Source: an uncultured Candidatus Saccharibacteria bacterium | GTDB lineage: Bacteria > Patescibacteriota > Minisyncoccia > Phycocordibacterales > UBA9973 | Assembly (NCBI GenBank): GCA_964397435.1 | Contig: CAYNHU010000002.1 | Span: 17,423 to 81,422 of the forward strand | DNA length: 64,000 bases | Direction of reading: 5' to 3' | Part shown: positions 8,557-62,910 of the stretch, piece after piece | Layout: each line of letters starts with the position of its first letter | How positions within the stretch are numbered: the first letter of the stretch is position 1 | Notes under the pieces: model-generated | Told to the model about the DNA's origin: nothing | The model's database searches: none | The model's input: only the letters and a program-made list of their open reading frames with translations | Made by a program: the position numbers and the translations under genes

Positions 8557-9654
8557 CTAGCGATTCATTGGCATAATAAGATAAATAAAGTTTGGATCAC
8601 CAACGCCACGAACAAGAAGTGGGCGATTTGCTGCCATACAATCAAAAGAAACACTATCTGAAGCGATTGCATTCAAACAATCAAGTAAGTAGCGATAATT
8701 AATAACAAAAGAAAGTGGTTCACCTGAGAGTGTTGCATTAAGTTCAACTTCGTTTTCACCAATATCAGTATTTTTTGCTGATAACATACACTGTTTTTTC
8801 GCAGGATCAATAGTGAGTGTTATTTGATTAAACTTATCACTAAACAAAGTACTTGTTTTGATTGCGTTTTGTAGTTCTGATTTCAAAAGCACAACTTCTG
8901 TAACTTTTTCTTTTGGGAAAATTTTTCGGTATTCAGGAAACACTCCATCAACAACACGAGAGGTGATGTAGTAACCATCAAAAGAGATTGTTAAAAGATT
9001 TTTACTTAGCTTAAAAGAAACTTCAGTTTGAACTCCTGCAAGAATACGCATTAATTCAACAACATTTTTGTATGGAATAAGTGTTGGTTGGAAACCATAC
9101 AAACCCTTAACCTTTATTTTCTTTTCAGCAAGACGAAATGAGTCAGTTGCAGCAAAAGTAAGTGTGTCATCTTCTGGGTAAATATAAACACTTCCAATTT
9201 CAGGCTTAATATCTGTTTGTGCAGCGGCATAATAAACCGCTTCCAAGCCGTCTATAAACGCATTAGCGGGGATTTTAATGCTTTCAGCATCAATGGTCGG
9301 TATTGTAGGAAAATCTTCGTATGGGAACGTTTTAACTTGAATCTTTGATTGTTTTGTTTTAACGAGTAATGTTTCACCAACCTGTTCAAGTAAAACTTCT
9401 TCATTTGAGCGTGTTGTAGCAAAGAATCCTGAGAGAATGTTTCCTGGAACAGCAACAACTCCTTCTTTCTCAACCTTAGCTGGTATTTCAATTTCAATAC
9501 CGAGACTAAGATTTGTCGCGCGGAGCTTAAGTGATGATCCACTAGCGATACAAAGAATCGAAGAGAGAATTGGTAATGTGAGATTTTTACCTGTTACGCG
9601 TTCAGCGTGTAAAAGTGCGTTTTTAACTTTTTCACTAGAGCAATGTATTTTCAT
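8557..9654 (-). CDS. dnaN: DNA polymerase III beta sliding clamp
   Basis: 365 aa with a typical DnaN N-terminus (MKIHCSSEKVKNALLHAERV) and three-domain length. Lies downstream of dnaA. Confidence 0.9.
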   Translation of the reverse strand: MKIHCSSEKVKNALLHAERVTGKNLTLPILSSILCIASGSSLKLRATNLSLGIEIEIPAKVEKEGVVAVPGNILSGFFATTRSNEEVLLEQVGETLLVKTKQSKIQVKTFPYEDFPTIPTIDAESIKIPANAFIDGLEAVYYAAAQTDIKPEIGSVYIYPEDDTLTFAATDSFRLAEKKIKVKGLYGFQPTLIPYKNVVELMRILAGVQTEVSFKLSKNLLTISFDGYYITSRVVDGVFPEYRKIFPKEKVTEVVLLKSELQNAIKTSTLFSDKFNQITLTIDPAKKQCMLSAKNTDIGENEVELNATLSGEPLSFVINYRYLLDCLNAIASDSVSFDCMAANRPLLVRGVGDPNFIYLIMPMNR

Positions 9655-9862
9655 ATATATAACTTAGTACTATTACTATACCTGTGGATTAGTGGATAAC
9701 TTTTTCTAACCCTATAAAACAATGATTTTTAATGATTTTTAAAATGTTTTGCTGGGTAAAACTTTTTTTATTTTTTCTATACCTATTTTTTAGTTATTTT
9801 TTATCCACACTCTTTTTTTAGAAATTCACTTTTTAAACATGATTTCCACAGAGCTTTGCGTA
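9655..9862. promoter_or_regulatory. oriC-like AT-rich region with DnaA boxes between dnaA and dnaN
   Basis: Contains TGTGGATTA at 9683-9691, AGTGGATAA at 9691-9699 and a perfect TTATCCACA at 9801-9809. Also has a direct repeat AATGATTTTTA twice and long A/T runs. Confidence 0.6.
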
Positions 9863-11224
9863 CTATTTAAACATGATTCTTAACTGTTCGACCTCACTAA
9901 CTAATACTGGATCTGCTTTCATATCATTTTTAATCTTGTCGCATGAGTGAATTACTGTCGTATGATCCTTACCACCAAGTTTCTGGCCGATGAGTGGATA
10001 TGAAACATTGAATTCTTCACGAAGGATATACATAACCATCTGACGAGCCTTCACAATTTCCTTTCGGCGAGTCTTGTCATAGATAGAATTCTCCTCCACC
10101 CCATAGAAATCAGCAACAATCCTAACGACTTCTTTTGAAGAAATCTGTTTTTTAGGTTTTACACTGTTTTTAATGAGATTTTTTACTTCAGTAAGACTCA
10201 ATGCACGATTGCGAAGTTGAGTTTGCATGATAAGTGTATTGAGATTTCCTTCGAGTTCTCGGATATTACCTTCAACAGAAGCAGCGATGTACTCTAAAAC
10301 ACCTTCTTCAACAGCAATTCCCTTTTCTTTTATCTTTGAACGCAAAACAGCAATACGAGATTCATAGTCTGGTTCAATAACATCAACAATCATTCCCTGT
10401 GAGAAACGAGATCGAAGGCGATCTTCGAGACCAGGAATGAAGTTTGGATGTTTATCTGATGAGAAGACAATCTGTTTGTTTGCTTCATAGAATGAGTTAA
10501 AGAGATGGAAGAGTTCCTCTTGGCTTTTCTCCATTTTCCCAATGAACTGGATATCATCCATAATCAAAACATCATATTTTCTATACTTTTCCTTGAAAAC
10601 ATGTGGTTTATTGTTCTGTACAGAACTAATATAGTCCATAGCAAACTTCTCGAGGGTGATATAGTGGACGCGCTTTTCTGGGTATTTAGTTTTTACTGCG
10701 TTTCCGAGTGCTTGAATAAGGTGAGTTTTACCGAGACCAGTGTTTCCGTAAACAAAAAATGGATTGTATGCACGTCCTGGCTTGCTAATAATTGCCTGTG
10801 CAGCTGCATATGCAAGTTCATTAAAAGGGCCAACAATAAAAGTATCGTACGTGTATTTAGGATTGAGGTTGTCATCCTTGTTGATGGGTGTTTCTGTGAG
10901 AGGAAGTTCTGCGGGAGCGTCTTGTTTGTGAGGCGCGAGAGCTTCAGCTTGTTTCTGAATGCGCATTTCAGGCTTCATGATCATGTATTCGACAGTACGA
11001 ATATGATCAGCTATTCCCATGAGAGATTTAAGGATGAGTTTATGATATTTTTGGATGAGCCAGTCTTTAACAAACTCATTAGGTACACCAACAAACACTA
11101 CCCCGTCTTCTTCGCGGATAACTGCTGTATTTTTAAACCAAGTATTAAAGTTGGCCTTTGAGACTTCAACCTCAATATCCTTTAAACAACGTGACCAAAG
11201 TTCGCGTGTATCAGTTATCTCCAT
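9863..11224 (-). CDS. dnaA: chromosomal replication initiator protein DnaA
   Basis: AAA+ Walker A motif GNTGLGKTHL, Walker B motif LIMDDIQF, and C-terminal DnaA-box-binding HTH. Length is 453 aa. Confidence 0.95.
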   Translation of the reverse strand: MEITDTRELWSRCLKDIEVEVSKANFNTWFKNTAVIREEDGVVFVGVPNEFVKDWLIQKYHKLILKSLMGIADHIRTVEYMIMKPEMRIQKQAEALAPHKQDAPAELPLTETPINKDDNLNPKYTYDTFIVGPFNELAYAAAQAIISKPGRAYNPFFVYGNTGLGKTHLIQALGNAVKTKYPEKRVHYITLEKFAMDYISSVQNNKPHVFKEKYRKYDVLIMDDIQFIGKMEKSQEELFHLFNSFYEANKQIVFSSDKHPNFIPGLEDRLRSRFSQGMIVDVIEPDYESRIAVLRSKIKEKGIAVEEGVLEYIAASVEGNIRELEGNLNTLIMQTQLRNRALSLTEVKNLIKNSVKPKKQISSKEVVRIVADFYGVEENSIYDKTRRKEIVKARQMVMYILREEFNVSYPLIGQKLGGKDHTTVIHSCDKIKNDMKADPVLVSEVEQLRIMFK

Positions 11225-11285
11225 AGTGGTCGTATTATATCCCAGAGTTGTAACTCATGGTACTTTACACAACCTGTGAATAATG

Positions 11286-11303
11286 TGTGGATATTGTGGA
11301 TAT
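11286..11303. promoter_or_regulatory. two tandem DnaA boxes (TGTGGATAT TGTGGATAT) upstream of dnaA
   Basis: Two abutting 8/9 matches to TGTGGATAA in the yidD-dnaA intergenic spacer. Confidence 0.5.
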
Positions 11304-34919: not shown

Positions 34920-37900
34920 CTAGCGAGTTAGTTTAACTTTTTCTACTCGAGGATATGATTGCTTGAATAGTTGATTGAGACTTTGAGTGAGATCTTTACT
35001 CATGATAGTTGCGAGTTCCGTTTCGTTTTTTGCTGGACCAAGAATATTTTTTGTTAGTTTAACGAGTGAACCAACAAGTTTGTTTGAGGTAGCTGTTTCC
35101 ATTCCCGTGATTTTTACTTCAAAAGCATCTTTGCCTGTACCAATTGCTGAGACTGTACCCTCGATTACTGTTAGACCACTTTCTCCTTTGATTATTAGTG
35201 AGAGTGGTGCGTTTCCACTGAAGTAATCAATAGTGCCGAGGGTGAGCTCCTGAATGTTATCGTTTCCGAGTGTCTCTGCTAGTTCTTTAAGAAGTGCAGT
35301 TTTTACAAATGAACCCATCTCAAGTGTTGATATTTCTGTAACAGAACCGCTCTCTTGTGTTTCGTTTTCAATAACTGGTTCTACTACAAAGAGTTCTTCA
35401 GGTTGATGTCTTGTTACTTCAGTTTCCGGAGAAGCTGCAGGTTTTTCTGTGCTAATTGTTGCGAACACCGCACCCCCTTTGAGTTTTGTACCTTCAGAGA
35501 GTGAGCCTGCGAGTGAACCAAATGATACATAGCCATCTGCTGTGGCGCGAATTTCAAGTGCAAGTTTGTCAATTTCTAGTTCAGCGATAACTGTGCCTGC
35601 TGTAACATATTGACCTTCAGTAACGTTTATTTTTTCTACCGTTACTTGTTTACCTTCGTCTGCAAATTCGGCAAGTGTGATCTCATGTACTTTTGCTGGT
35701 CGTGGTGCTACTGGTGCGACTTCAAATGTTGCTGCTGGTGTTTCTTCTGGAACTGCTGCTAATTGTTTTGTCAGTGTGCCCGCGCGAGCTTTTTCTTGTT
35801 CGATGAAGATTGGTTTGAATTCAGCCCATGTTAATTCTTTTGGCTGTTCACCAACTGCGCCTTCTTGGAGATAGTAACCAAGGCGAGACAAGTTATAGTG
35901 AGCGAGGAGTAGTGTTCGAATTTCTGCAACACTACCACCGGGTTCTTTGAGTTTTGCTTCAACCGTATCAAACTCCTGCGTGACTTCCTCAAGTTTTGCC
36001 TTGATCTGTTCTGGAGTGAGTGCAACAGCTTCTTCGATGAGTGTTTCTGCACCAGTTTCTTTTGTTTCTGTATCAACGCGTCCAAGTTCTGTTGCGTTGA
36101 TGAGCACTTCGAGATCCTGCTTTCGTGTTCCAGAAATACTGTTTGCTGTTTTTAATTTATCTTCCCAGAGTTTGAGTTCTGTTTGCAAAGCAGTTAGTTT
36201 GTTCTGAAGTTTTTTGATTTTTACTTCATAGTCACGAATGTCTGATGGTTTTGTGGCTGCGGCACGCTTCGCTTCTGTTTCAGTAATTGCATTAGTAAAT
36301 CCATCGATATTTTGTCGTGCTTGTGCAACTTGTTGTGCAAGGAATTCACGAATATGCTCGATGCGTTCTTTACCAGTACGCATACTTCGCTGTTCTGTTG
36401 TCACTGCACGACGAGTGAGGTATTCGACACTCGCTGCGATGTTTGCTGATTGTCGTATATCGAGTCCGAGGTAGTTAATGATCTGGTTTTCAGTCAAGCC
36501 TGCTTCACGGCCTGAGCTGTCTTTTGGTTTCTGACTGTGAATCATTGACCCACGAGTAATTTTTGCGAGTGGATCTTTTTTGTTAATACGGTTGAGTAAT
36601 TCTTTGAGTTCAACTCCTGGGCGTGAGATGAAGTAGAATTTTTCTACAGGATCAAAACGAACATAAGTATCGTATCCCATATTGTACGCAGCATGAGAGC
36701 CATGAGGGATTTCCCAATTTCGGCTACCAGAGACTGGTTCATACATGAGCACTTTTCCAAATTCTGCTGAGAATGTTTTTTGTCCCAAAAGGTATGCGCG
36801 ACGTTCGTAATGTTCAACAAATTTAATACTTTTTTGAGTAAGTCTATTTGTTGCTTCTACTAGCTGAGCAAGTGTTTTTGAATTTCCTTGTTTATCAACA
36901 CATTCTTGCGCGAGTTCTTCTTCGGTAAGTGCTGCGTATGGATCTTTACCTCGTTTGAAAAATTCGATGAGTGATTCAGTTGAGAGAATATCACGCAAAC
37001 CGAGTAAAGTTCTTGAGTACGTATTTTTGTACCAGTCTTTACCGCCTCGAGGGTATGCCATGTTGTCGACATCGTTTACAAATGAAACGAGGTTTTCCAT
37101 CCATGGTTCAATTTTTTCTGCCTTACCACTACGGCGAAGTGTTTCAAGTACAATTTCTGCTGTTGATGTTTTAACCCACTTATTTGGGAAATGGTGATCA
37201 CTTACCCATCGATCTTTTTTGATTTCAAGAATATCGTTGATACCACTTACATCAAGCACAATACCTGGGCCGTCATATGTACTTCCCTTTGGTAATGTCT
37301 GATCAACTGTTTCGCTTTTTGCTTCACCAACTAACTGCACAAAAAGTAATGCGATGCGTGAATCAAGATCCGGCTTTTCATGTGTCTTGATTGGAAGATC
37401 TTTTCGTTCAAGAATGTTTTGTACTTCTTTGATTTTTTCTGGAGTAAGTCGTTTGTCTACTTCACGAGCAAGATCACTTCGATTACTAATGTATTCACGG
37501 ACTTCAGAAATATTTTTGAGTCCCAATGTTTGCTCTGCGAGTTCTTGTGCTTTTGCAATCAACTCATCTGGGTTTTTGGTAAGCGCATCGAGTTCATTTC
37601 GTGATACTTTTCCATTCAAAAACTTTCGAGCAACAGTAACATCGCGCTGTTTTTTCTGAGTCTCTTCTTTATTAAAAAATTTGTTGTGAAGTGCTTCAAC
37701 TTCAGTCGTTGTAAGTTTTCTATATGCTGAAGGATCCTTGCCTTCTTGTTTTGCAATTTCAAAAATACGAATCTTGCGAAGCAATTCTGCTTGTTCTTCT
37801 ACCGTTGTTGTTTTTTCTTCCTCTTTTTCCTCGACGACTTCTGCTACAACCTCTTCAATTTTTTCTGGAGGAACGACAGCTGGTGTTTCTTCTTCTGTTA

Positions 37901-38276
37901 CAACAACCACCGGTGTTTCGACGGATGTTTTAGCAACGACAGTAGGATCCTCTTTTTTTGTAGTTTTTGTAGCTACTGTTTTCTTGAGTCGATCAACTTC
38001 TTTCTGTAAGATATTTTGAGCTTGGATTGCGAATGGTTTGATAGCCGTAAGTTTTTCTTCGTTCCCCGCATAGTGAAGAGCGGCTTTTTCCAAAAGGGCT
38101 GCCGTTGCGGCTAACTTATTGGTCTTCATCATTTGCATGATTTCGTTAAGACCCTTCATGTCCCCCTTAAAAATGTCTTGAAGCATTTCCCCGTTTCCAA
38201 AAAACTCTTCAGTTTGTTTAAGGAATACTTCTTTTTCGTTAGACGACCCAGTACCTTCGAGGTTCTTTTTTGCCAT
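34920..38276 (-). CDS. large hypothetical protein (1118 aa) with coiled-coil regions and a biotinyl/lipoyl-like domain near the C-terminus
   Basis: Segment VTVEKINVTEGQYVTAGTVIAELEIDKLALEIRATADGYV matches the lipoyl/biotinyl-carrier hybrid-barrel pattern. No TM segment. Confidence 0.6.
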   Translation of the reverse strand: MAKKNLEGTGSSNEKEVFLKQTEEFFGNGEMLQDIFKGDMKGLNEIMQMMKTNKLAATAALLEKAALHYAGNEEKLTAIKPFAIQAQNILQKEVDRLKKTVATKTTKKEDPTVVAKTSVETPVVVVTEEETPAVVPPEKIEEVVAEVVEEKEEEKTTTVEEQAELLRKIRIFEIAKQEGKDPSAYRKLTTTEVEALHNKFFNKEETQKKQRDVTVARKFLNGKVSRNELDALTKNPDELIAKAQELAEQTLGLKNISEVREYISNRSDLAREVDKRLTPEKIKEVQNILERKDLPIKTHEKPDLDSRIALLFVQLVGEAKSETVDQTLPKGSTYDGPGIVLDVSGINDILEIKKDRWVSDHHFPNKWVKTSTAEIVLETLRRSGKAEKIEPWMENLVSFVNDVDNMAYPRGGKDWYKNTYSRTLLGLRDILSTESLIEFFKRGKDPYAALTEEELAQECVDKQGNSKTLAQLVEATNRLTQKSIKFVEHYERRAYLLGQKTFSAEFGKVLMYEPVSGSRNWEIPHGSHAAYNMGYDTYVRFDPVEKFYFISRPGVELKELLNRINKKDPLAKITRGSMIHSQKPKDSSGREAGLTENQIINYLGLDIRQSANIAASVEYLTRRAVTTEQRSMRTGKERIEHIREFLAQQVAQARQNIDGFTNAITETEAKRAAATKPSDIRDYEVKIKKLQNKLTALQTELKLWEDKLKTANSISGTRKQDLEVLINATELGRVDTETKETGAETLIEEAVALTPEQIKAKLEEVTQEFDTVEAKLKEPGGSVAEIRTLLLAHYNLSRLGYYLQEGAVGEQPKELTWAEFKPIFIEQEKARAGTLTKQLAAVPEETPAATFEVAPVAPRPAKVHEITLAEFADEGKQVTVEKINVTEGQYVTAGTVIAELEIDKLALEIRATADGYVSFGSLAGSLSEGTKLKGGAVFATISTEKPAASPETEVTRHQPEELFVVEPVIENETQESGSVTEISTLEMGSFVKTALLKELAETLGNDNIQELTLGTIDYFSGNAPLSLIIKGESGLTVIEGTVSAIGTGKDAFEVKITGMETATSNKLVGSLVKLTKNILGPAKNETELATIMSKDLTQSLNQLFKQSYPRVEKVKLTR

Positions 38277-38280
38277 GTGT

Positions 38281-39606
38281 TTATTTTAACACACGTTCCA
38301 GTCGTTTGATAAGTGATTCGTAAAGTTCAATACGAGCTTGAGTTTCCTTTTGAGAAAGCTTTTCTTCGTTTGAAGTTACCGTCTTTTCAGTGGTTGTTGT
38401 TTCTTTAACCTCCGCAACAGCCGCCTCTTTCTTTTCCTTGATAACATCGAACAAATGTTCAATGCCTGTGTGTGTGGTAACAACGAGAGATTCAGGATAT
38501 GCATTCCATTCCACAACGTTCAATTCTCGTACTTCCCCAGCCGCATTTTTGATACTAATAGTTTCAGTATCGTTTCCATGATCTACGATACCGACAACTT
38601 CCCATGGAATCTTATCATCGTCTGTATACGCAACCCCTTTTCGAAGGTCAAAAGGAACTCCTTCGCTTGTTGGGTATTTGATTGATTTTAATTGTTTTTC
38701 CTGTGGTGTTGCTGGCTCAGTCTCAGAGGTTGCCGTTTCCTGAGTTTCTGTTTCTGATGCAGGTTCAGTCTCTTCGTATTCTAGCAATGGTTCGCGTTCA
38801 CGAGAAAGTGTGAGCTGATCACCGAGTGTTTTGATGATGTCTTTATTCTCAGCGTTATGCCAGTCACGTACATGTACGAATCGTGTTTCAAATGGTCCAC
38901 TTGTTGCTGTTACTTTAAAAATAACGGAATGTGTTTTTGCATCAACAGACATACCAGTAACTTCCCATTCGTTACCTTTTGCATCTCTGAATGTGTCACC
39001 AATATCTACAGGGATATGTTCGTCGCTACCCTCGTGAGAATAGTGTTCAAGTTCAATAGCCTCTTCGTTTGTGTGTACTGGTGAAGCTAGGCGAAGTCGA
39101 AGTGTTTTACCTCGATTTCCGAGTGAAAGCATACCGTCCTTGTTTGTGCCGAGCAGTTTAAAATCTGTTGTATATACACCTCGTTTATCTACGATATCGA
39201 TAGTATTTTTTTCAGGATGGACATTCTTAACTAAAATGCGATCGTTACCCTCAGTAAAAAAGACAGAGTTAGGTGTAATACCAAGTTTCTGGAGGAGATT
39301 TGAAGTGTCTTTCTCTGGAGTCTTTTTGTTGGTACCAGCTTCACTCATTAAATCAAGGAGTTTTTGAGTAAAGAAGTCGATATTGTTTTGTCCGCCAAAT
39401 TCCTCAGTATATGGCTTGAGAGCTTTACGAATCTTGTCCTCAGGAGCCTTTTTTGCCACGAGACCAAGTATCTGGTCGAGCAGAACGCTTGAAAGAAACT
39501 GTCCTTGTTTTTTACCTGCAACATCAAAAAGACCTTCAACCATATTTCTACTTTGGTGAGGTGCTGGAATTCCACCTTCTGCTGTTGTAGGTTTTTCACC
39601 AGACAT
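38281..39606 (-). CDS. hypothetical protein (441 aa)
   Basis: Co-oriented ORF 4 bp upstream of the 1118 aa gene. Has a T/E-rich acidic linker. Confidence 0.55.
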   Translation of the reverse strand: MSGEKPTTAEGGIPAPHQSRNMVEGLFDVAGKKQGQFLSSVLLDQILGLVAKKAPEDKIRKALKPYTEEFGGQNNIDFFTQKLLDLMSEAGTNKKTPEKDTSNLLQKLGITPNSVFFTEGNDRILVKNVHPEKNTIDIVDKRGVYTTDFKLLGTNKDGMLSLGNRGKTLRLRLASPVHTNEEAIELEHYSHEGSDEHIPVDIGDTFRDAKGNEWEVTGMSVDAKTHSVIFKVTATSGPFETRFVHVRDWHNAENKDIIKTLGDQLTLSREREPLLEYEETEPASETETQETATSETEPATPQEKQLKSIKYPTSEGVPFDLRKGVAYTDDDKIPWEVVGIVDHGNDTETISIKNAAGEVRELNVVEWNAYPESLVVTTHTGIEHLFDVIKEKKEAAVAEVKETTTTEKTVTSNEEKLSQKETQARIELYESLIKRLERVLK

Positions 39607-39613
39607 TGAATGA

Positions 39614-39943
39614 TTAGTTCATTTTGCGCATGATTGCATCACGTTCAGCCTTGAGGTTGGCTGTTTCTTCGGCAGCAATCTTATCAAAATCTGGGTTTTC
39701 TTTGCGGAGGAATGCGAAGAGTTCTTCTGGGGCAGCATCTGTATCGAGGAGGCGTTCGAGGGTGTTTTGTGCTTCTTCGCTCAAACTTGGGGCAATACGC
39801 AAAAGAACTCCCTGGAAAATAAGCTGGCCAACTTGTTGAATGATGGCATCCTGCTCATCTTGAGTCATCGCACTAAGTCCCAATGTTGTAACGAGCATTT
39901 CGCGTGTTTTTGTATCCATATATATGTATAAGGTTCGCCCCAA
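39614..39943 (-). CDS. hypothetical small protein (109 aa), first gene of 3-gene operon
   Basis: ORF 7 bp upstream of the 441 aa gene. Confidence 0.5.
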   Translation of the reverse strand: MGRTLYIYMDTKTREMLVTTLGLSAMTQDEQDAIIQQVGQLIFQGVLLRIAPSLSEEAQNTLERLLDTDAAPEELFAFLRKENPDFDKIAAEETANLKAERDAIMRKMN

Positions 39944-40007
39944 AGCGAAGAATTAATGATTAAGTTTCTAAAAATAGTATAACACAATGAGGTTGGGATG
40001 TTTTTTG

Positions 40008-40028
40008 TTATCCACACCATGTGGATTA
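40008..40028. promoter_or_regulatory. convergent DnaA-box pair TTATCCACA-cca-TGTGGATTA in the divergent promoter region
   Basis: Perfect consensus box plus an 8/9 inverted partner. Lies about 65-85 bp upstream of the operon start at 39943 and about 170 bp upstream of the 40199 gene. Confidence 0.45.
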
Positions 40029-40198
40029 TAACTGTTGACTTGCCCCTCCCCGCGGGCTACCCTAGATAGGTCGGGCATTTTTCAGTAATCTCGCCCCTCC
40101 TTCTGTAAAGTTGTTTTTCCTAAAAACCTTTATTTTACAAGGTTTTATAGGATTTCCGTACGATAGTAACGCATATAGCCTTATATTTCAACGATATT

Positions 40199-41416
40199 TT
40201 GGTTATATGCCCCAAACCTAGGCTTATTACAAAAAACCAACAGGACCCTCAGGTATACGTGCACGGTGCACCCCATGAGGCGAAAAAACCTTTATTTATC
40301 AAGCTTTCTCATCAAAAGCTTGCTTCTTTGTTGCTTATTGCAGGTCTTGGTTTGGGTACCCCAGCAATGGCTCAGGCGGGTATTTTGTCACTTTTGGGGC
40401 TTGAAAATACAGCCTCAGCTGAAACCATCTCAGCATCTGCAGTGCTTAATTCACAAAATCTCGCACTACCACAGGCAACTATTGCAACCAAGGATGCAGG
40501 CACACAGGAGGTTGAACTCCCTGTTGCGGATGATGCTCTTGTTGCTCAGGCTGGACCACTTGGTACTCAGGCTGATATGACAGATGAAGTTGTTGCTGAT
40601 GTAAACCAGATCTATACATATGTTGTACGTTCAGGAGATACATTACCAGTCATTGCTAAAATGTTGAATGTTTCAGTCGGTACAATTGTCTGGGCAAACG
40701 ACCTTTCAGGTAAAAATGCTAAATTAACCCCAGGTCAGGTGCTCGCCATCCTCCCTGTTTCGGGTATCTCATACACAATCAAAAAAGGCGACACTATTAG
40801 TGGTATTGCAAAACGTTTCAAAGTTGATGTTGATGAAATCGGTAAATTTAACGGTTTAGAATTGGATAGTAAGCTTATTGCCGGTGAAGAAATCATTATT
40901 CCGGGTGCTGATCTTGCCCTCCCATCTTCAACTATCACCACAGGAACAAAATCAAGCGGGTCATCTTTGGGTAGTTCGGGTTCGAATCTTCCATTATATG
41001 CATATGGTGCAACACGCCTTCAGAGTGGTTTCAGTGGCCCAGATTTGGGTGGTTATTTTAACCGTCCAGTTAAAGGCTGTCTCCGAACTCAAGGTGCTCA
41101 CGGTAAAAATGGTGTTGATATTGGCTGTCCAATTGGTACACCAATTATGGCAGCTGCGAATGGTACTGTTTTGATTGCTCGTGATTCTGGATGGAATGGA
41201 GGTTTTGGAAAATATGTTGTTATCAACCATCCAAACGGAACTCAAACATTGTATGGACATATGAGTGCGGTCTATGTGACCTCAGGACAGTCAGTTTCTC
41301 AAGGTCAGACAATTGGTCTCATGGGCTCAACCGGACGATCGACCGGCTCGCATCTTCACTTTGAAGTTCACGGTGCTGAAAACCCACTCGTAAAAAATCC
41401 TCGCTACGGATTGTAA
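40199..41416 (+). CDS. secreted M23-family metallopeptidase with two LysM domains
   Basis: Signal peptide, LysM motifs (YVVRSGDTLPVIAKMLNV and YTIKKGDTISGIAKRFKV), and C-terminal M23 domain (HxxxD-type GVDIGCPIGTPI ... GSHLHFEV). Confidence 0.85.
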   Translation: MVICPKPRLITKNQQDPQVYVHGAPHEAKKPLFIKLSHQKLASLLLIAGLGLGTPAMAQAGILSLLGLENTASAETISASAVLNSQNLALPQATIATKDAGTQEVELPVADDALVAQAGPLGTQADMTDEVVADVNQIYTYVVRSGDTLPVIAKMLNVSVGTIVWANDLSGKNAKLTPGQVLAILPVSGISYTIKKGDTISGIAKRFKVDVDEIGKFNGLELDSKLIAGEEIIIPGADLALPSSTITTGTKSSGSSLGSSGSNLPLYAYGATRLQSGFSGPDLGGYFNRPVKGCLRTQGAHGKNGVDIGCPIGTPIMAAANGTVLIARDSGWNGGFGKYVVINHPNGTQTLYGHMSAVYVTSGQSVSQGQTIGLMGSTGRSTGSHLHFEVHGAENPLVKNPRYGL

Positions 41417-61945: not shown

Positions 61946-62234
61946 TACCCATCCTACATAGATGACCTATAGCAACTACGGAGCCATTAGAAAGGCCCTG
62001 GACTCACACATTTGACAAACACTCTCCTATTGCATAATTCTGTCAATCCCACTACTATGTCCTTTTCCCCATTTTTTAACCTTATTTTTCAATAGTATGT
62101 GGATAAGTCTGTGTACTATGTTTATAAAAGACATCATTTCGTATTGTCTAATTATTGCGTCTTTTATGAAAAAAGCTTGATAAATAAGGATATTTTGATT
62201 TTTAGGACTACTAATCCCCAACCCAGAATCTAAA

Positions 62235-62502
62235 TGTTTCACGTGAAACACTTAAATAGTAACTGTTTCATATGAAACAGGTTAAGACATTAAAAATCTT
62301 AAATATAAAACACGAAGTGTTACACATGAAACAAAAAGCACCAAAAACAGTGAAACAAATAAATTTAGATCCTTTTTATTTATATTTTATAGCTTATATC
62401 TATAATAACTGTTACACATGAAACACTGTATTTAAATCATGTCTCAGTACACAGATTGAAATACTTTTTGTTTATTAACCATAAAACGTTTCATGTGTAA
62501 CA
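62235..62502. repeat. array of six related palindromic/inverted 15-18 bp motifs (TGTTTCACGTGAAACA, CTGTTTCATATGAAACAG, TGTTACACATGAAACA x2, GTGAAACA half-site, TGTTTCATGTGTAACA) upstream of yraN
   Basis: Copies at 62235-62250, 62263-62280, 62318-62333, 62347-62358, 62410-62425 and 62488-62502. The last ends 4 bp before the yraN ATG. Related CACGTG-cored palindromes also occur inside yraN (GTTTCACGTGAAAG at about 62683 and TGTCACGTGACA at about 62753). Confidence 0.55.
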
Positions 62503-62505
62503 CTT

Positions 62506-62910
62506 ATGCCGAGAGTTTTCACATCAAAAAGCCAAAAAATAGGACAAATAGGAGAAAAACTTGCCGCTCTATATCTTACAAAACAAGGTTTTAGTATTAA
62601 AGATATTAACTATACAAAACCATGGGGTGAGATAGATATTGTTGCTTTAAAAGACAATATAATTCATTTTATAGAAGTAAAATCAGTTTCACGTGAAAGT
62701 AAATCTGGTTTAGCTATTAAAAATAAGGATTTATATAGGCCAGAAGAAAATCTGTCACGTGACAAGTTGCGTAAACTCTATAGGACAATAGGGTTATATC
62801 TAAAAGACAAAAATATGACCGATAGGGTAGAGTGGCAACTGGACCTCATTTGCGTATACCTTGAGCCGTCTAAAAAGATGGGTAAAGTTAAGTATCTTGA
62901 AAATATCTGA
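62506..62910 (+). CDS. yraN: YraN/UPF0102-family predicted endonuclease
   Basis: Motifs GEIDIVAL...IHFIEVK fit the UPF0102 (PD-(D/E)xK-like) signature. Length is 134 aa. Confidence 0.75.
   Translation: MPRVFTSKSQKIGQIGEKLAALYLTKQGFSIKDINYTKPWGEIDIVALKDNIIHFIEVKSVSRESKSGLAIKNKDLYRPEENLSRDKLRKLYRTIGLYLKDKNMTDRVEWQLDLICVYLEPSKKMGKVKYLENI

What the first reader, a model, noticed from the sequence alone, without database searches (positions are those of the whole stretch)
40008..40028. Head-to-head DnaA-box palindrome in the promoter of the unknown 3-gene operon
TTATCCACA-cca-TGTGGATTA is a perfect box plus an 8/9 inverted partner. It sits at the -35 position relative to a TGtTATACT extended -10 box of the minus-strand operon (39943 down to 34920). 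It lies in the shared upstream region of the LysM-M23 peptidase gene and is about 29 kb from oriC. This suggests DnaA-dependent, replication-coupled control of these unknown genes, or binding by a TF that recognises the same palindrome.
Basis: partly seen in the sequence, partly recalled or inferred. Interest (0 to 1): 0.5.

Follow-up and report, generated by a model that had tools for sequence, protein, structure and literature searches.

The report
Conserved DnaA-box pair at hydrolase promoter
Two inverted copies of the binding motif of the replication initiator DnaA sit just upstream of the promoter of a secreted cell-wall hydrolase gene in an uncultured Parcubacteria-type bacterium and are kept in its relatives, so this is very probably a real regulatory site of a known kind, though binding by DnaA itself is not proven.

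Summary
The sequence is as described: TTATCCACA (40008-40016), cca, TGTGGATTA (40020-40028). It is not chance. No convergent 3-bp-spaced box pair occurred in 5000 simulated windows, and any pair within 10 bp occurred in 0.36%.

It is conserved. Eight lineages with syntenic or orthologous loci keep both 9-mers. In the seven closest, pairwise identity is 0.90 and 0.87 for the boxes against 0.30 for the spacer and right flank. The arms show no compensatory changes, so this is a protein site, not a hairpin.

The pair lies a fixed 5-7 bp upstream of an invariant TTGACT-N17-TACCCT promoter that reads into the LysM-M23 peptidase gene. In the window the pair lies at about -39 to -59 of that promoter, not at -35.

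More distant relatives keep box-like 9-mers in the same two slots, but single, direct or inverted. That fits monomer binding by DnaA better than a symmetric dimer. The same 9-mers occur next to this genome's dnaA gene, and its DnaA keeps the DNA-contact residues.

Verdict: probable DnaA operator, centred on the hydrolase promoter and shared with the divergent operon. It is a new member of a known kind, of moderate interest. Binding and the direction of regulation are untested.

The parts
40008..40016 (+). Left (promoter-distal) DnaA-box-like 9-mer TTATCCACA, a perfect consensus box
   Evidence: Orthologues carry TTATCCACA (L004, L006, L019), TTATCTACA (L008), TTATCCCCA (L011), TTTTCCACA (L016, L120, L013) and ATTTCCACA (L125). 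Pairwise identity among the seven closest lineages is 0.90.
40017..40019 (.). 3-bp spacer (cca), free to vary
   Evidence: The spacer reads cca, agc, tcg, ttc, ttc, tat and ggg in different lineages, and is 4 nt (tacc) in L016. Pairwise identity is 0.30.
40020..40028 (-). Right (promoter-proximal) box, TGTGGATTA on the plus strand, equal to TAATCCACA (8/9); weaker, in convergent orientation
   Evidence: The same 9-mer occurs at 9683 next to dnaA. Orthologues carry TGGGGATTA (L004, L006), TGTGGATTG (L008, L019), TGTGGATTA (L011), TGGGGATTG (L016) and TGTGTATTA (L125). Pairwise identity is 0.87.
40035..40063 (+). Predicted sigma-70-type promoter of the M23 gene: -35 TTGACT (40035-40040), 17-bp spacer, -10 TACCCT (40058-40063); predicted start about 40068-40070
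   Evidence: TTGACT-N17-TACC[CA]T is invariant in all close orthologues while the spacer sequence varies. It is also present in distant M23 loci. A covarying 5' hairpin begins at the predicted start. The start site is inferred, not mapped.
39976..39984 (-). Extended -10 promoter element of the divergent operon: TGTTATACT on the minus strand; predicted start about 39969
   Evidence: TGnTATACT is invariant in 10 related loci. The gap to the left box is 26 bp here and 16-37 bp in relatives (and a count of the sequences).
40068..40258 (+). Conserved, probably structured 5' leader of the M23 mRNA
   Evidence: RNAalifold predicts 35 pairs, 16 with compensatory changes. nhmmer finds the leader only upstream of M23 orthologues. 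There is no Rfam match.
40259..41416 (+). LysM-LysM-M23 peptidoglycan endopeptidase gene with a signal-peptide-like N-terminus; the start codon (GTG 40259) is uncertain
   Evidence: Pfam Peptidase_M23 at 9e-33 and LysM at 4e-23. There is a graded series of orthologues. Start-codon positions are inconsistent among orthologues.
34920..39919 (-). Divergent three-gene operon: DUF5663 protein (39614-39919), 441-aa protein (38281-39606), and 1118-aa protein with a lipoyl-like domain (34920-38276)
   Evidence: Pfam and NCBIfam scans. The same three-gene arrangement is found in L004, L006, L008, L011 and L013; in L120 the contig ends within the second gene.
9683..9809 (.). Reference DnaA boxes in the AT-rich dnaA-dnaN spacer (TGTGGATTA, AGTGGATAA, TTATCCACA), a candidate oriC
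11275..11303 (-). Reference: three tandem DnaA boxes directly upstream of dnaA (TGTGAATAA, TGTGGATAT, TGTGGATAT)

Best explanation
The 21-bp element is an operator made of two convergent DnaA boxes, a consensus distal box and a weaker proximal box. It sits 6 bp upstream of the -35 hexamer of the promoter of a secreted LysM-M23 peptidoglycan hydrolase gene, at about -62 to -42 from that promoter's predicted start. It is also about -39 to -59 from the divergent extended -10 promoter of the DUF5663 operon.

The proposed mechanism is as follows. DnaA binds the strong box through its domain IV and recruits a second DnaA to the weak box next to RNA polymerase. Transcription of the hydrolase gene, and probably of the divergent operon, then follows the level or nucleotide state of DnaA, and so the replication-initiation cycle. 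By analogy with E. coli nrdAB, where boxes also lie just upstream of the -35, I favour activation at low occupancy and repression at high occupancy.

Shown here: the site exists, is non-random, is conserved, is fixed in spacing to the promoter, and has DnaA-box-like sequence and degeneracy.
Inferred: that DnaA is the binder, the transcription start sites, the sign of regulation, and the link to replication.
For: - Chance is excluded.
- Phylogenetic footprint: in the seven closest lineages both boxes have pairwise identity 0.90 and 0.87, against 0.30 for the spacer and right flank. An eighth lineage, at only 53% protein identity (L125), has ATTTCCACA-ggg-TGTGTATTA at the same distance from TTGACT.
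- The distance to the plus-strand -35 is fixed at 5-7 bp. The distance to the minus-strand -10 varies from 16 to 37 bp.
- Among 18 M23-promoter lineages, 7 have an exact TT[AT]TNCACA and 12 a match with at most 1 mismatch within 32 bp upstream of the -35. Background 32-bp windows give 0.3% and 5.4%. The boxes always fall in the same two slots.
- The arrangement changes between lineages: convergent, two direct (L049, L039, L124), or single (L058, L120, L013). This is expected for a protein that binds 9-mers as a monomer.
- The two 9-mers are identical to boxes beside this genome's dnaA gene.
- This DnaA aligns with E. coli DnaA and keeps R399, P423, D433, H434, T435 and H439. That these are the DNA-contact residues is from my memory of the DnaA domain IV-DNA crystal structure.
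- Consensus-type boxes are enriched in intergenic DNA: 6 of 14 lie in about 9% of the window. They are almost absent elsewhere in the orthologous loci.
- No transcription-factor gene lies in the conserved neighbourhood.
- DnaA acting as activator or repressor from promoter boxes is established (PMC8203912). Convergent DnaA boxes that bind DnaA exist in E. coli DARS1 (PMC6868365).
Against: - There is no binding or expression data.
- Several orthologous half-sites depart from the DnaA consensus at positions usually important for binding: TTATCCCCA, TAATCCCCA and CAATCCCCA (A7 to C), and position 2 is A in every right box. L008 and L011 have no exact consensus box at all.
- C at position 5 is invariant in the seven closest lineages, although the DnaA consensus allows any base there.
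- The lineages are related, so the enrichment P-values overstate independence.
- Consensus DnaA boxes upstream of E. coli ftsZ proved non-functional (PMC8203912). Sequence alone can therefore mislead.
- Three lineages (L015, L041, L022) have no box within 2 mismatches of TTATCCACA at this promoter.
Confidence: 0.6

Rival explanations
1. The element is the operator of a different sequence-specific transcription factor, not DnaA. This could be a dimeric helix-turn-helix protein or an OmpR/WalR-type response regulator of cell-wall hydrolase genes. It would recognise ATCC[AC]CA half-sites that only resemble DnaA boxes.
For: - The window has perfect 7+7 dyad symmetry.
- Both halves are conserved in 8 lineages.
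- Half-site variants such as TCCCCA are poor DnaA boxes but are kept.
- C5 is invariant in the close clade.
- Two direct repeats with an 11-bp period next to the -35 in L049 and L039 resemble response-regulator sites.
- From general knowledge, WalR-type regulators control peptidoglycan hydrolase genes in Firmicutes.
Against: - Orientation and number of half-sites change between lineages (convergent, direct, single) while the slots stay fixed. This is hard to reconcile with a fixed dimer geometry.
- The spacer is 4 bp in L016.
- The conserved half-site is 9 bp long and extends into the TT/TA flank typical of DnaA boxes.
- Identical 9-mers lie beside dnaA.
- No regulator gene lies in the conserved neighbourhood.
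- There is no second copy of the palindrome in the 64-kb window.
Confidence: 0.25
2. The pair is bound by DnaA, but its main role is not transcriptional. It would be a DARS-like nucleotide-exchange site or a DnaA-titrating site that happens to lie in an intergenic region.
For: E. coli DARS1 has the same convergent orientation, TTATCCACT-attcc-TGTGGATAA, and also lies in a promoter region (bioD-uvrB) (PMC6868365).
Against: - The spacing is 3 bp (4 in L016), not 5.
- There is no third box: the 9-mer 3 bp after the right box, CTGTTGACT, does not resemble a box.
- The strict 5-7 bp spacing to a -35 hexamer across lineages points to an interaction with RNA polymerase.
- Other lineages have direct or single boxes, which cannot form a head-to-head dimer.
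Confidence: 0.07
3. There is no dedicated function: a chance palindrome, or conservation caused by overlapping promoter elements or a DNA/RNA hairpin.
For: 7+7 inverted repeats with a 3-nt loop are individually common; I estimate about 4 per 64 kb for a given loop size, which was not measured. The T-run left of the site is also fairly conserved (0.65).
Against: - The simulation gives at most 0.4%.
- The boxes are far better conserved than the spacer and right flank.
- Arm substitutions are never compensatory (for example CCACA opposite TGGGG in L004, L006 and L016), and no T-run follows, so this is neither a hairpin nor a terminator.
- The site lies upstream of both predicted start sites.
- It is not A/T-rich as an UP element would be.
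Confidence: 0.05

Closest known systems
E. coli nrdAB promoter: DnaA boxes immediately upstream of the -35, with dual activation and repression by DnaA
   Same: Two DnaA boxes directly upstream of a sigma-70-type -35 hexamer. A strong box is combined with a weaker box, which would allow dose-dependent or nucleotide-state-dependent control (PMC8203912).
   Different: The target gene differs (peptidoglycan hydrolase rather than ribonucleotide reductase). The boxes are convergent with a 3-bp gap. The promoter region is shared and divergent. The organism is an uncultured Parcubacteria-type bacterium. Nothing has been tested experimentally.
E. coli DARS1/DARS2 core (DnaA-reactivating sequences)
   Same: The two boxes have the same convergent ('head-to-head') orientation, a consensus box is paired with an imperfect one, and the location is intergenic in a promoter region (PMC6868365).
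   Different: DARS has a 5-bp gap and needs a third box. Here the gap is 3 bp (4 in L016) with no third box, and the element is phased to a -35 hexamer.
DnaA regulons that couple replication to the cell cycle (Caulobacter ftsZ/mipZ/gcrA; B. subtilis sda, ftsL, dnaA)
   Same: Promoter-proximal DnaA boxes upstream of genes for cell-envelope or division functions. DnaA acts as a transcription factor in addition to its initiator role (PMC8203912, PMC4447404).
   Different: Those regulons were defined by ChIP and genetics. B. subtilis sites are usually clusters of many boxes. Here there is a minimal two-box site, supported only by comparative sequence.
dnaA autoregulatory boxes and oriC boxes of the same genome
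   Same: Identical 9-mers: TTATCCACA at 9801 and TGTGGATTA at 9683.
   Different: Those boxes are tandem or overlapping direct arrays next to dnaA. The M23 site is an isolated convergent pair 29 kb away.

Membership tests
DnaA box / DnaA-regulated promoter | 9-mer matching TT[A/T]TNCACA | tested here: met
   The left box matches 9/9 and the right box 8/9. In orthologues, 7 of 18 lineages have an exact match and 12 of 18 a match with at most 1 mismatch in the 32 bp upstream of the -35.
DnaA box / DnaA-regulated promoter | The same box variants are used at the organism's own dnaA/oriC region | tested here: met
   TTATCCACA at 9801 and TGTGGATTA at 9683 lie in the dnaA-dnaN spacer, and there are three tandem boxes at 11275-11303 upstream of dnaA.
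DnaA box / DnaA-regulated promoter | The organism encodes a DnaA whose domain IV keeps the base-contacting residues | tested here: met
   Pfam finds Bac_DnaA and Bac_DnaA_C. The alignment to E. coli DnaA keeps R399, P423, D433, H434, T435 and H439. The residue list is recalled from the published DnaA-DNA structure.
DnaA box / DnaA-regulated promoter | Conservation of the site in orthologous promoters | tested here: met
DnaA box / DnaA-regulated promoter | Physical binding by DnaA (EMSA, footprint or ChIP) | not testable with these tools
   This needs purified protein or cells of an uncultured organism.
DnaA box / DnaA-regulated promoter | Transcription changes when DnaA level or state changes, or when the boxes are mutated | not testable with these tools
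   No expression data are available.
DARS-type DnaA-reactivating sequence | Boxes I and II convergent with a 5-bp gap | tested here: not met
   The orientation is the same, but the gap is 3 bp here (4 bp in L016) against 5 bp in E. coli DARS1 (PMC6868365).
DARS-type DnaA-reactivating sequence | Third box (III) head-to-tail with box II | tested here: not met
   The sequence after the right box is taaCTGTTGACT, with no box-like 9-mer. E. coli has cca-TGTGTATTA at this position.
DARS-type DnaA-reactivating sequence | Stimulates ADP release from DnaA | not testable with these tools
   This requires a biochemical assay.
Dyad-symmetric operator of a dimeric transcription factor | Inverted repeat with fixed half-site orientation and spacing across orthologues | tested here: not met
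   The repeat is inverted in 8 lineages, but it is direct in L049, L039 and L124 and single in L058, L120 and L013, and the spacer is 4 bp in L016.
Dyad-symmetric operator of a dimeric transcription factor | Cognate regulator gene adjacent, or further operator copies in the genome | tested here: inconclusive
   No regulator lies in the conserved neighbourhood, and there is no second palindrome in the 64-kb window. The rest of the genome was not available.
Intrinsic terminator / selected hairpin | Stem kept by compensatory changes, followed by a T-run | tested here: not met
   Arm changes break the pairing in L004, L006, L011 and L016. There is no T-run, and the terminator scan did not report it.

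The most novel reading that the evidence does not exclude
In this group of reduced-genome, probably host-dependent Parcubacteria, DnaA is the main cell-cycle transcription factor, and a secreted LysM-M23 cell-wall hydrolase is its conserved direct target. In the window's clade, the convergent 3-bp-spaced box pair additionally forms a head-to-head DnaA dimer like DARS boxes I-II. The promoter would then also act as a minimal DnaA nucleotide-exchange or titration site, in a lineage for which the E. coli DnaA-cycle factors have not been described.
Probability: 0.07. Interest if true: 0.7.

Novelty: new member of a known kind. Interest (0 to 1): 0.42.

Why it matters
No gene-regulation experiments on Patescibacteria turned up here. 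The full-text search found a single paper that mentions DnaA, Patescibacteria and oriC together, and it is on another subject. These bacteria are mostly uncultured.

This site is a clean, comparatively validated regulatory element. It gives a concrete, cheap experiment: DnaA expressed in E. coli, tested by EMSA or footprint on a 100-bp fragment. If DnaA binds, it would show that the initiator links replication to the expression of a secreted peptidoglycan hydrolase. That hydrolase could serve daughter-cell separation or, in an epibiont, attack on the host wall.

The work also defines a conserved promoter type (TTGACT-N17-TACCCT, and an extended -10 TGnTATACT) and a structured leader for this lineage. 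These are useful for annotating such genomes.

Tried and rejected
- Searches with the two promoter-proximal operon proteins (441 aa and DUF5663) in the 5.8-billion-protein collection returned only themselves. Orthologous loci had to be reached through the M23 peptidase instead.
- The three contigs that encode the identical 441-aa protein have an identical intergenic region and say nothing about conservation.
These served as outgroups and background.
- Contigs L119 and L121 were too short upstream to be useful. L124 starts inside the site.
- Rfam gave nothing for the intergenic region at gathering or relaxed thresholds.
- A hairpin or terminator reading was rejected: there are no compensatory changes and no T-run.
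- Resemblance to parS, CIRCE, LexA, NrdR, Fur, WalR or MraZ sites was considered from memory. None fits the 9-mer. A true parS array exists elsewhere in the window.
The test of co-variation between oriC boxes and promoter boxes therefore remains undone.

Full report
**1. The observation**

Window 40008-40028 reads TTATCCACA-cca-TGTGGATTA. The left 9-mer is the canonical DnaA box. The right one is TAATCCACA on the other strand (8/9). The core ATCCACA-N3-TGTGGAT is a perfect 7+7 inverted repeat and is unique in the window.

Perfect boxes occur 3 times in 64 kb against 0.63 expected. All three lie in the roughly 9% of the window that is not in long ORFs. In 5000 first-order Markov simulations of the window:
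- a perfect box with a partner of at most 1 mismatch within 10 bp, in any orientation, appeared in 0.36% of windows;
- a convergent pair appeared in 0.04%;
- a convergent pair with a 3-bp spacer never appeared.

**2. Context**

- dnaA (9863-11224) and dnaN (8557-9654) lie on the minus strand.
- Box clusters flank dnaA. TGTGGATTA, AGTGGATAA and TTATCCACA lie in the AT-rich dnaA-dnaN spacer, and three tandem boxes lie directly upstream of dnaA. The site is about 29 kb from there.
- To the right of the site is a LysM-LysM-M23 peptidase gene with a signal-peptide-like N-terminus.
- To the left, on the minus strand, is a three-gene operon: a DUF5663 protein, a 441-aa protein and a 1118-aa protein with a lipoyl-like domain.
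- Homologues of the peptidase come from Parcubacteria-type (Paceibacterota, Patescibacteria) MAGs.
- No transcription-factor gene lies nearby.

**3. Conservation**

The two promoter-proximal operon proteins find no homologues by word-based search. The peptidase, however, has a graded series of orthologues, and their contigs show the same divergent gene arrangement.

The site is present in eight lineages:

| Locus | Site |
|---|---|
| window | TTATCCACA cca TGTGGATTA |
| L004 | TTATCCACA agc TGGGGATTA |
| L006 | TTATCCACA tcg TGGGGATTA |
| L008 | TTATCTACA ttc TGTGGATTG |
| L011 | TTATCCCCA ttc TGTGGATTA |
| L016 | TTTTCCACA tacc TGGGGATTG |
| L019 | TTATCCACA tat TGTGGATTG |
| L125 (53% peptidase identity) | ATTTCCACA ggg TGTGTATTA |

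Among the seven closest lineages, pairwise identity is 0.90 for the left box and 0.87 for the right box. It is 0.30 for the spacer and 0.30 for the right flank.

Changes in one arm are never compensated in the other (CCACA faces TGGGG in L004, L006 and L016). The constraint is therefore on two protein-recognition half-sites, not on a hairpin.

L120 and L013 keep only the left box (TTTTCCACA). L124 has two abutting direct copies. L017 keeps only a relaxed box (TGTGAAAAT) in the right slot.

**4. What the site is attached to**

Immediately to the right of the pair, at 5-7 bp in the eight lineages that carry it, lies TTGACT-N17-TACCCT. Both hexamers are invariant and the spacer varies freely. This is the signature of a sigma-70-type promoter that reads towards the peptidase gene. 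A hairpin with compensatory changes begins exactly at the predicted start, about 40068-40070, which supports the promoter call. Relative to this promoter the site spans about -62 to -42.

TGnTATACT is invariant in ten loci. But its distance to the left box is 26 bp in the window, L004, L016 and L019, 33 bp in L008, 37 bp in L006 and L011, and 16 bp in L125, L120 and L013. In the window the site therefore lies at about -39 to -59 of that promoter, one helical turn upstream of the -35 position. Only in the 16-bp lineages does it overlap that position.

The element is thus a central operator between two divergent promoters, but it is phased to the peptidase promoter.

**5. Wider distribution**

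More distant M23 loci (38-47% identity) keep the TTGACT-N17-TACC[AC]T promoter. They often carry box-like 9-mers in the same two slots, starting 27-28 and 14-16 bp before the -35 hexamer, but in other arrangements:
- L049 has CTATCCCCA-aa-CTTTCCACA, both direct.
- L039 has two direct copies.
- L058 has a single TGTGGAAAA.

Of 18 lineages, 7 have an exact TT[AT]TNCACA and 12 a match with at most 1 mismatch in the 32 bp upstream of the -35. Background 32-bp windows in about 0.64 Mb of the same loci give 0.3% and 5.4%. The binomial P-values are around 1e-11 to 1e-13, but the lineages are not independent. L015, L041 and L022 have no box within 2 mismatches of TTATCCACA.

**6. Who binds it**

Evidence for DnaA:
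- The 9-mers are the canonical box and a variant, and both also occur beside dnaA in this genome.
- The A/T alternation at position 3 (TTATCC/TTTTCC) and the position-5 change in L125 (TAATACACA) follow the known TT[A/T]TNCACA degeneracy.
- Orientation and number of boxes change between lineages while their positions stay fixed. This suits a monomeric DNA-binding domain on a flexible linker and does not suit a fixed dimer.
- This DnaA keeps the residues that contact the box in E. coli DnaA (the residue list is from my memory of the structure).
- Consensus boxes are enriched in intergenic DNA here.
- DnaA is a well-known activator and repressor from promoter boxes, including sites just upstream of a -35 (nrdAB) and at genes tied to cell division (PMC8203912).

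Evidence against DnaA:
- Several half-sites carry C at position 7 (TCCCCA).
- The right box always has A at position 2.
- L008 and L011 lack any exact consensus box.
- C5 never varies in the close clade.
- Consensus boxes can be non-functional, as upstream of E. coli ftsZ (PMC8203912).

I put DnaA at about 0.6, another factor at about 0.25, a non-transcriptional DnaA site at about 0.07, and no dedicated function at about 0.05.

**7. Comparison with DARS**

I read the E. coli bioD-uvrB spacer. The DARS1 core is TTATCCACT-attcc-TGTGGATAA-cca-TGTGTATTA. The first two boxes are convergent like ours. They are 5 bp apart, and a third box is required (PMC6868365). Our site has a 3-bp gap, no third box, and a strict relation to a -35 hexamer. 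It is therefore not a DARS by the defining features. The comparison does show that DnaA can occupy convergent boxes.

**8. Mechanism proposed (inferred)**

DnaA binds the strong distal box and cooperatively fills the weak proximal box that abuts the -35 hexamer. The peptidase promoter has a good -35 and a poor -10 (TACCCT). The divergent promoter has an extended -10 and no -35. Both could depend on, or be blocked by, a protein bound at about -50. By analogy with nrdAB, I favour activation at low occupancy and repression at high occupancy, but the sign is not determined. The functional logic would be to tie expression of a secreted peptidoglycan hydrolase, and of a fast-evolving operon of unknown function, to the initiator's level or state.

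**9. Verdict**

Its centre of gravity moves from the unknown operon to the hydrolase promoter. It is a new member of a known kind, a DnaA-box operator at a promoter, in a lineage for which I found no regulatory experiments. Interest is moderate.

Noticed in passing
window 62098-62700: There is a parS array: a perfect TGTTTCACGTGAAACA at 62235-62250 plus five variants at 62264, 62318, 62410, 62487 and 62685 (16 strand-hits against 3.4 expected). It lies in an AT-rich stretch with no ORF of 150 aa or more, between tRNA-Arg and tRNA-Pro, about 140 bp from the third perfect DnaA box (62098-62106). This is probably the chromosome's centromere-like region, some 50 kb from dnaA.
   Followed up: partly
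window 40068-40258 (and L004, L006, L008, L011, L016, L017, L019): The 5' leader of the M23 peptidase mRNA is highly conserved. RNAalifold predicts 35 pairs, 16 of them with compensatory changes. The leader contains repeated CYTTATWTTWCAA blocks at about 40128, 40179, 40221 and 40288. It has no Rfam match, and nhmmer finds it only upstream of M23 orthologues. It may be an undescribed cis-regulatory RNA.
   Followed up: partly
window 40199-40300 and orthologues: The M23 start codon is not at a conserved position. L011 and L013 have no ATG, GTG or TTG upstream of the conserved 'AKKPLF' codons. In L125 the same nucleotide block is shifted by one base relative to the ORF. The block GCGAAAAAACCYTTATTT may therefore be conserved as RNA rather than as peptide.
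   Followed up: partly
window 39934-39963: The 5' UTR of the DUF5663 operon holds a conserved hairpin (TTCGCCCCAAAGCGAA, 39934-39949; the stem is kept as TTCCGC...GCGGAA or ATCCGC...GCGGAT in relatives). It also holds a near-invariant palindrome, TTAATGATTAA (39953-39963), just downstream of the predicted start.
   Followed up: no
L073:169-219: A distant Parcubacterium has ATATCCACA-tga-TGTGCATAA, the same convergent 3-bp-spaced geometry, plus GGTGGATTT about 20 bp further on. These lie in a non-coding stretch of about 800 bp upstream of rho. I estimate about 0.02 such pairs by chance in the 0.64 Mb scanned. This hints that the geometry recurs in the phylum.
   Followed up: partly
window 38281-39919: The DUF5663 protein (101 aa) and the 441-aa protein find only themselves among 5.8 billion clustered proteins. 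Syntenic counterparts of similar length nevertheless exist in every close relative, so the operon evolves very fast.
   Followed up: partly
window 34920-38276: The 1118-aa third operon protein has a lipoyl/biotinyl-attachment-like domain (residues about 864-959). By eye it also has a DHH-type motif (VSDHHFP) that no profile recognised. Counterparts in relatives are 1024-1215 aa.
   Followed up: no
L015:6650-6685 and L017:2720-2755: Two lineages carry different inverted repeats at the equivalent place upstream of the M23 promoter: ATTCGTCAAA-tttt-TTGACGAAT in L015 and CAAAAACAA-N7-TTGTTTTG in L017. L015 has no DnaA-box-like 9-mer there, and L017 keeps only a relaxed one. This suggests operator turnover.
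   Followed up: no
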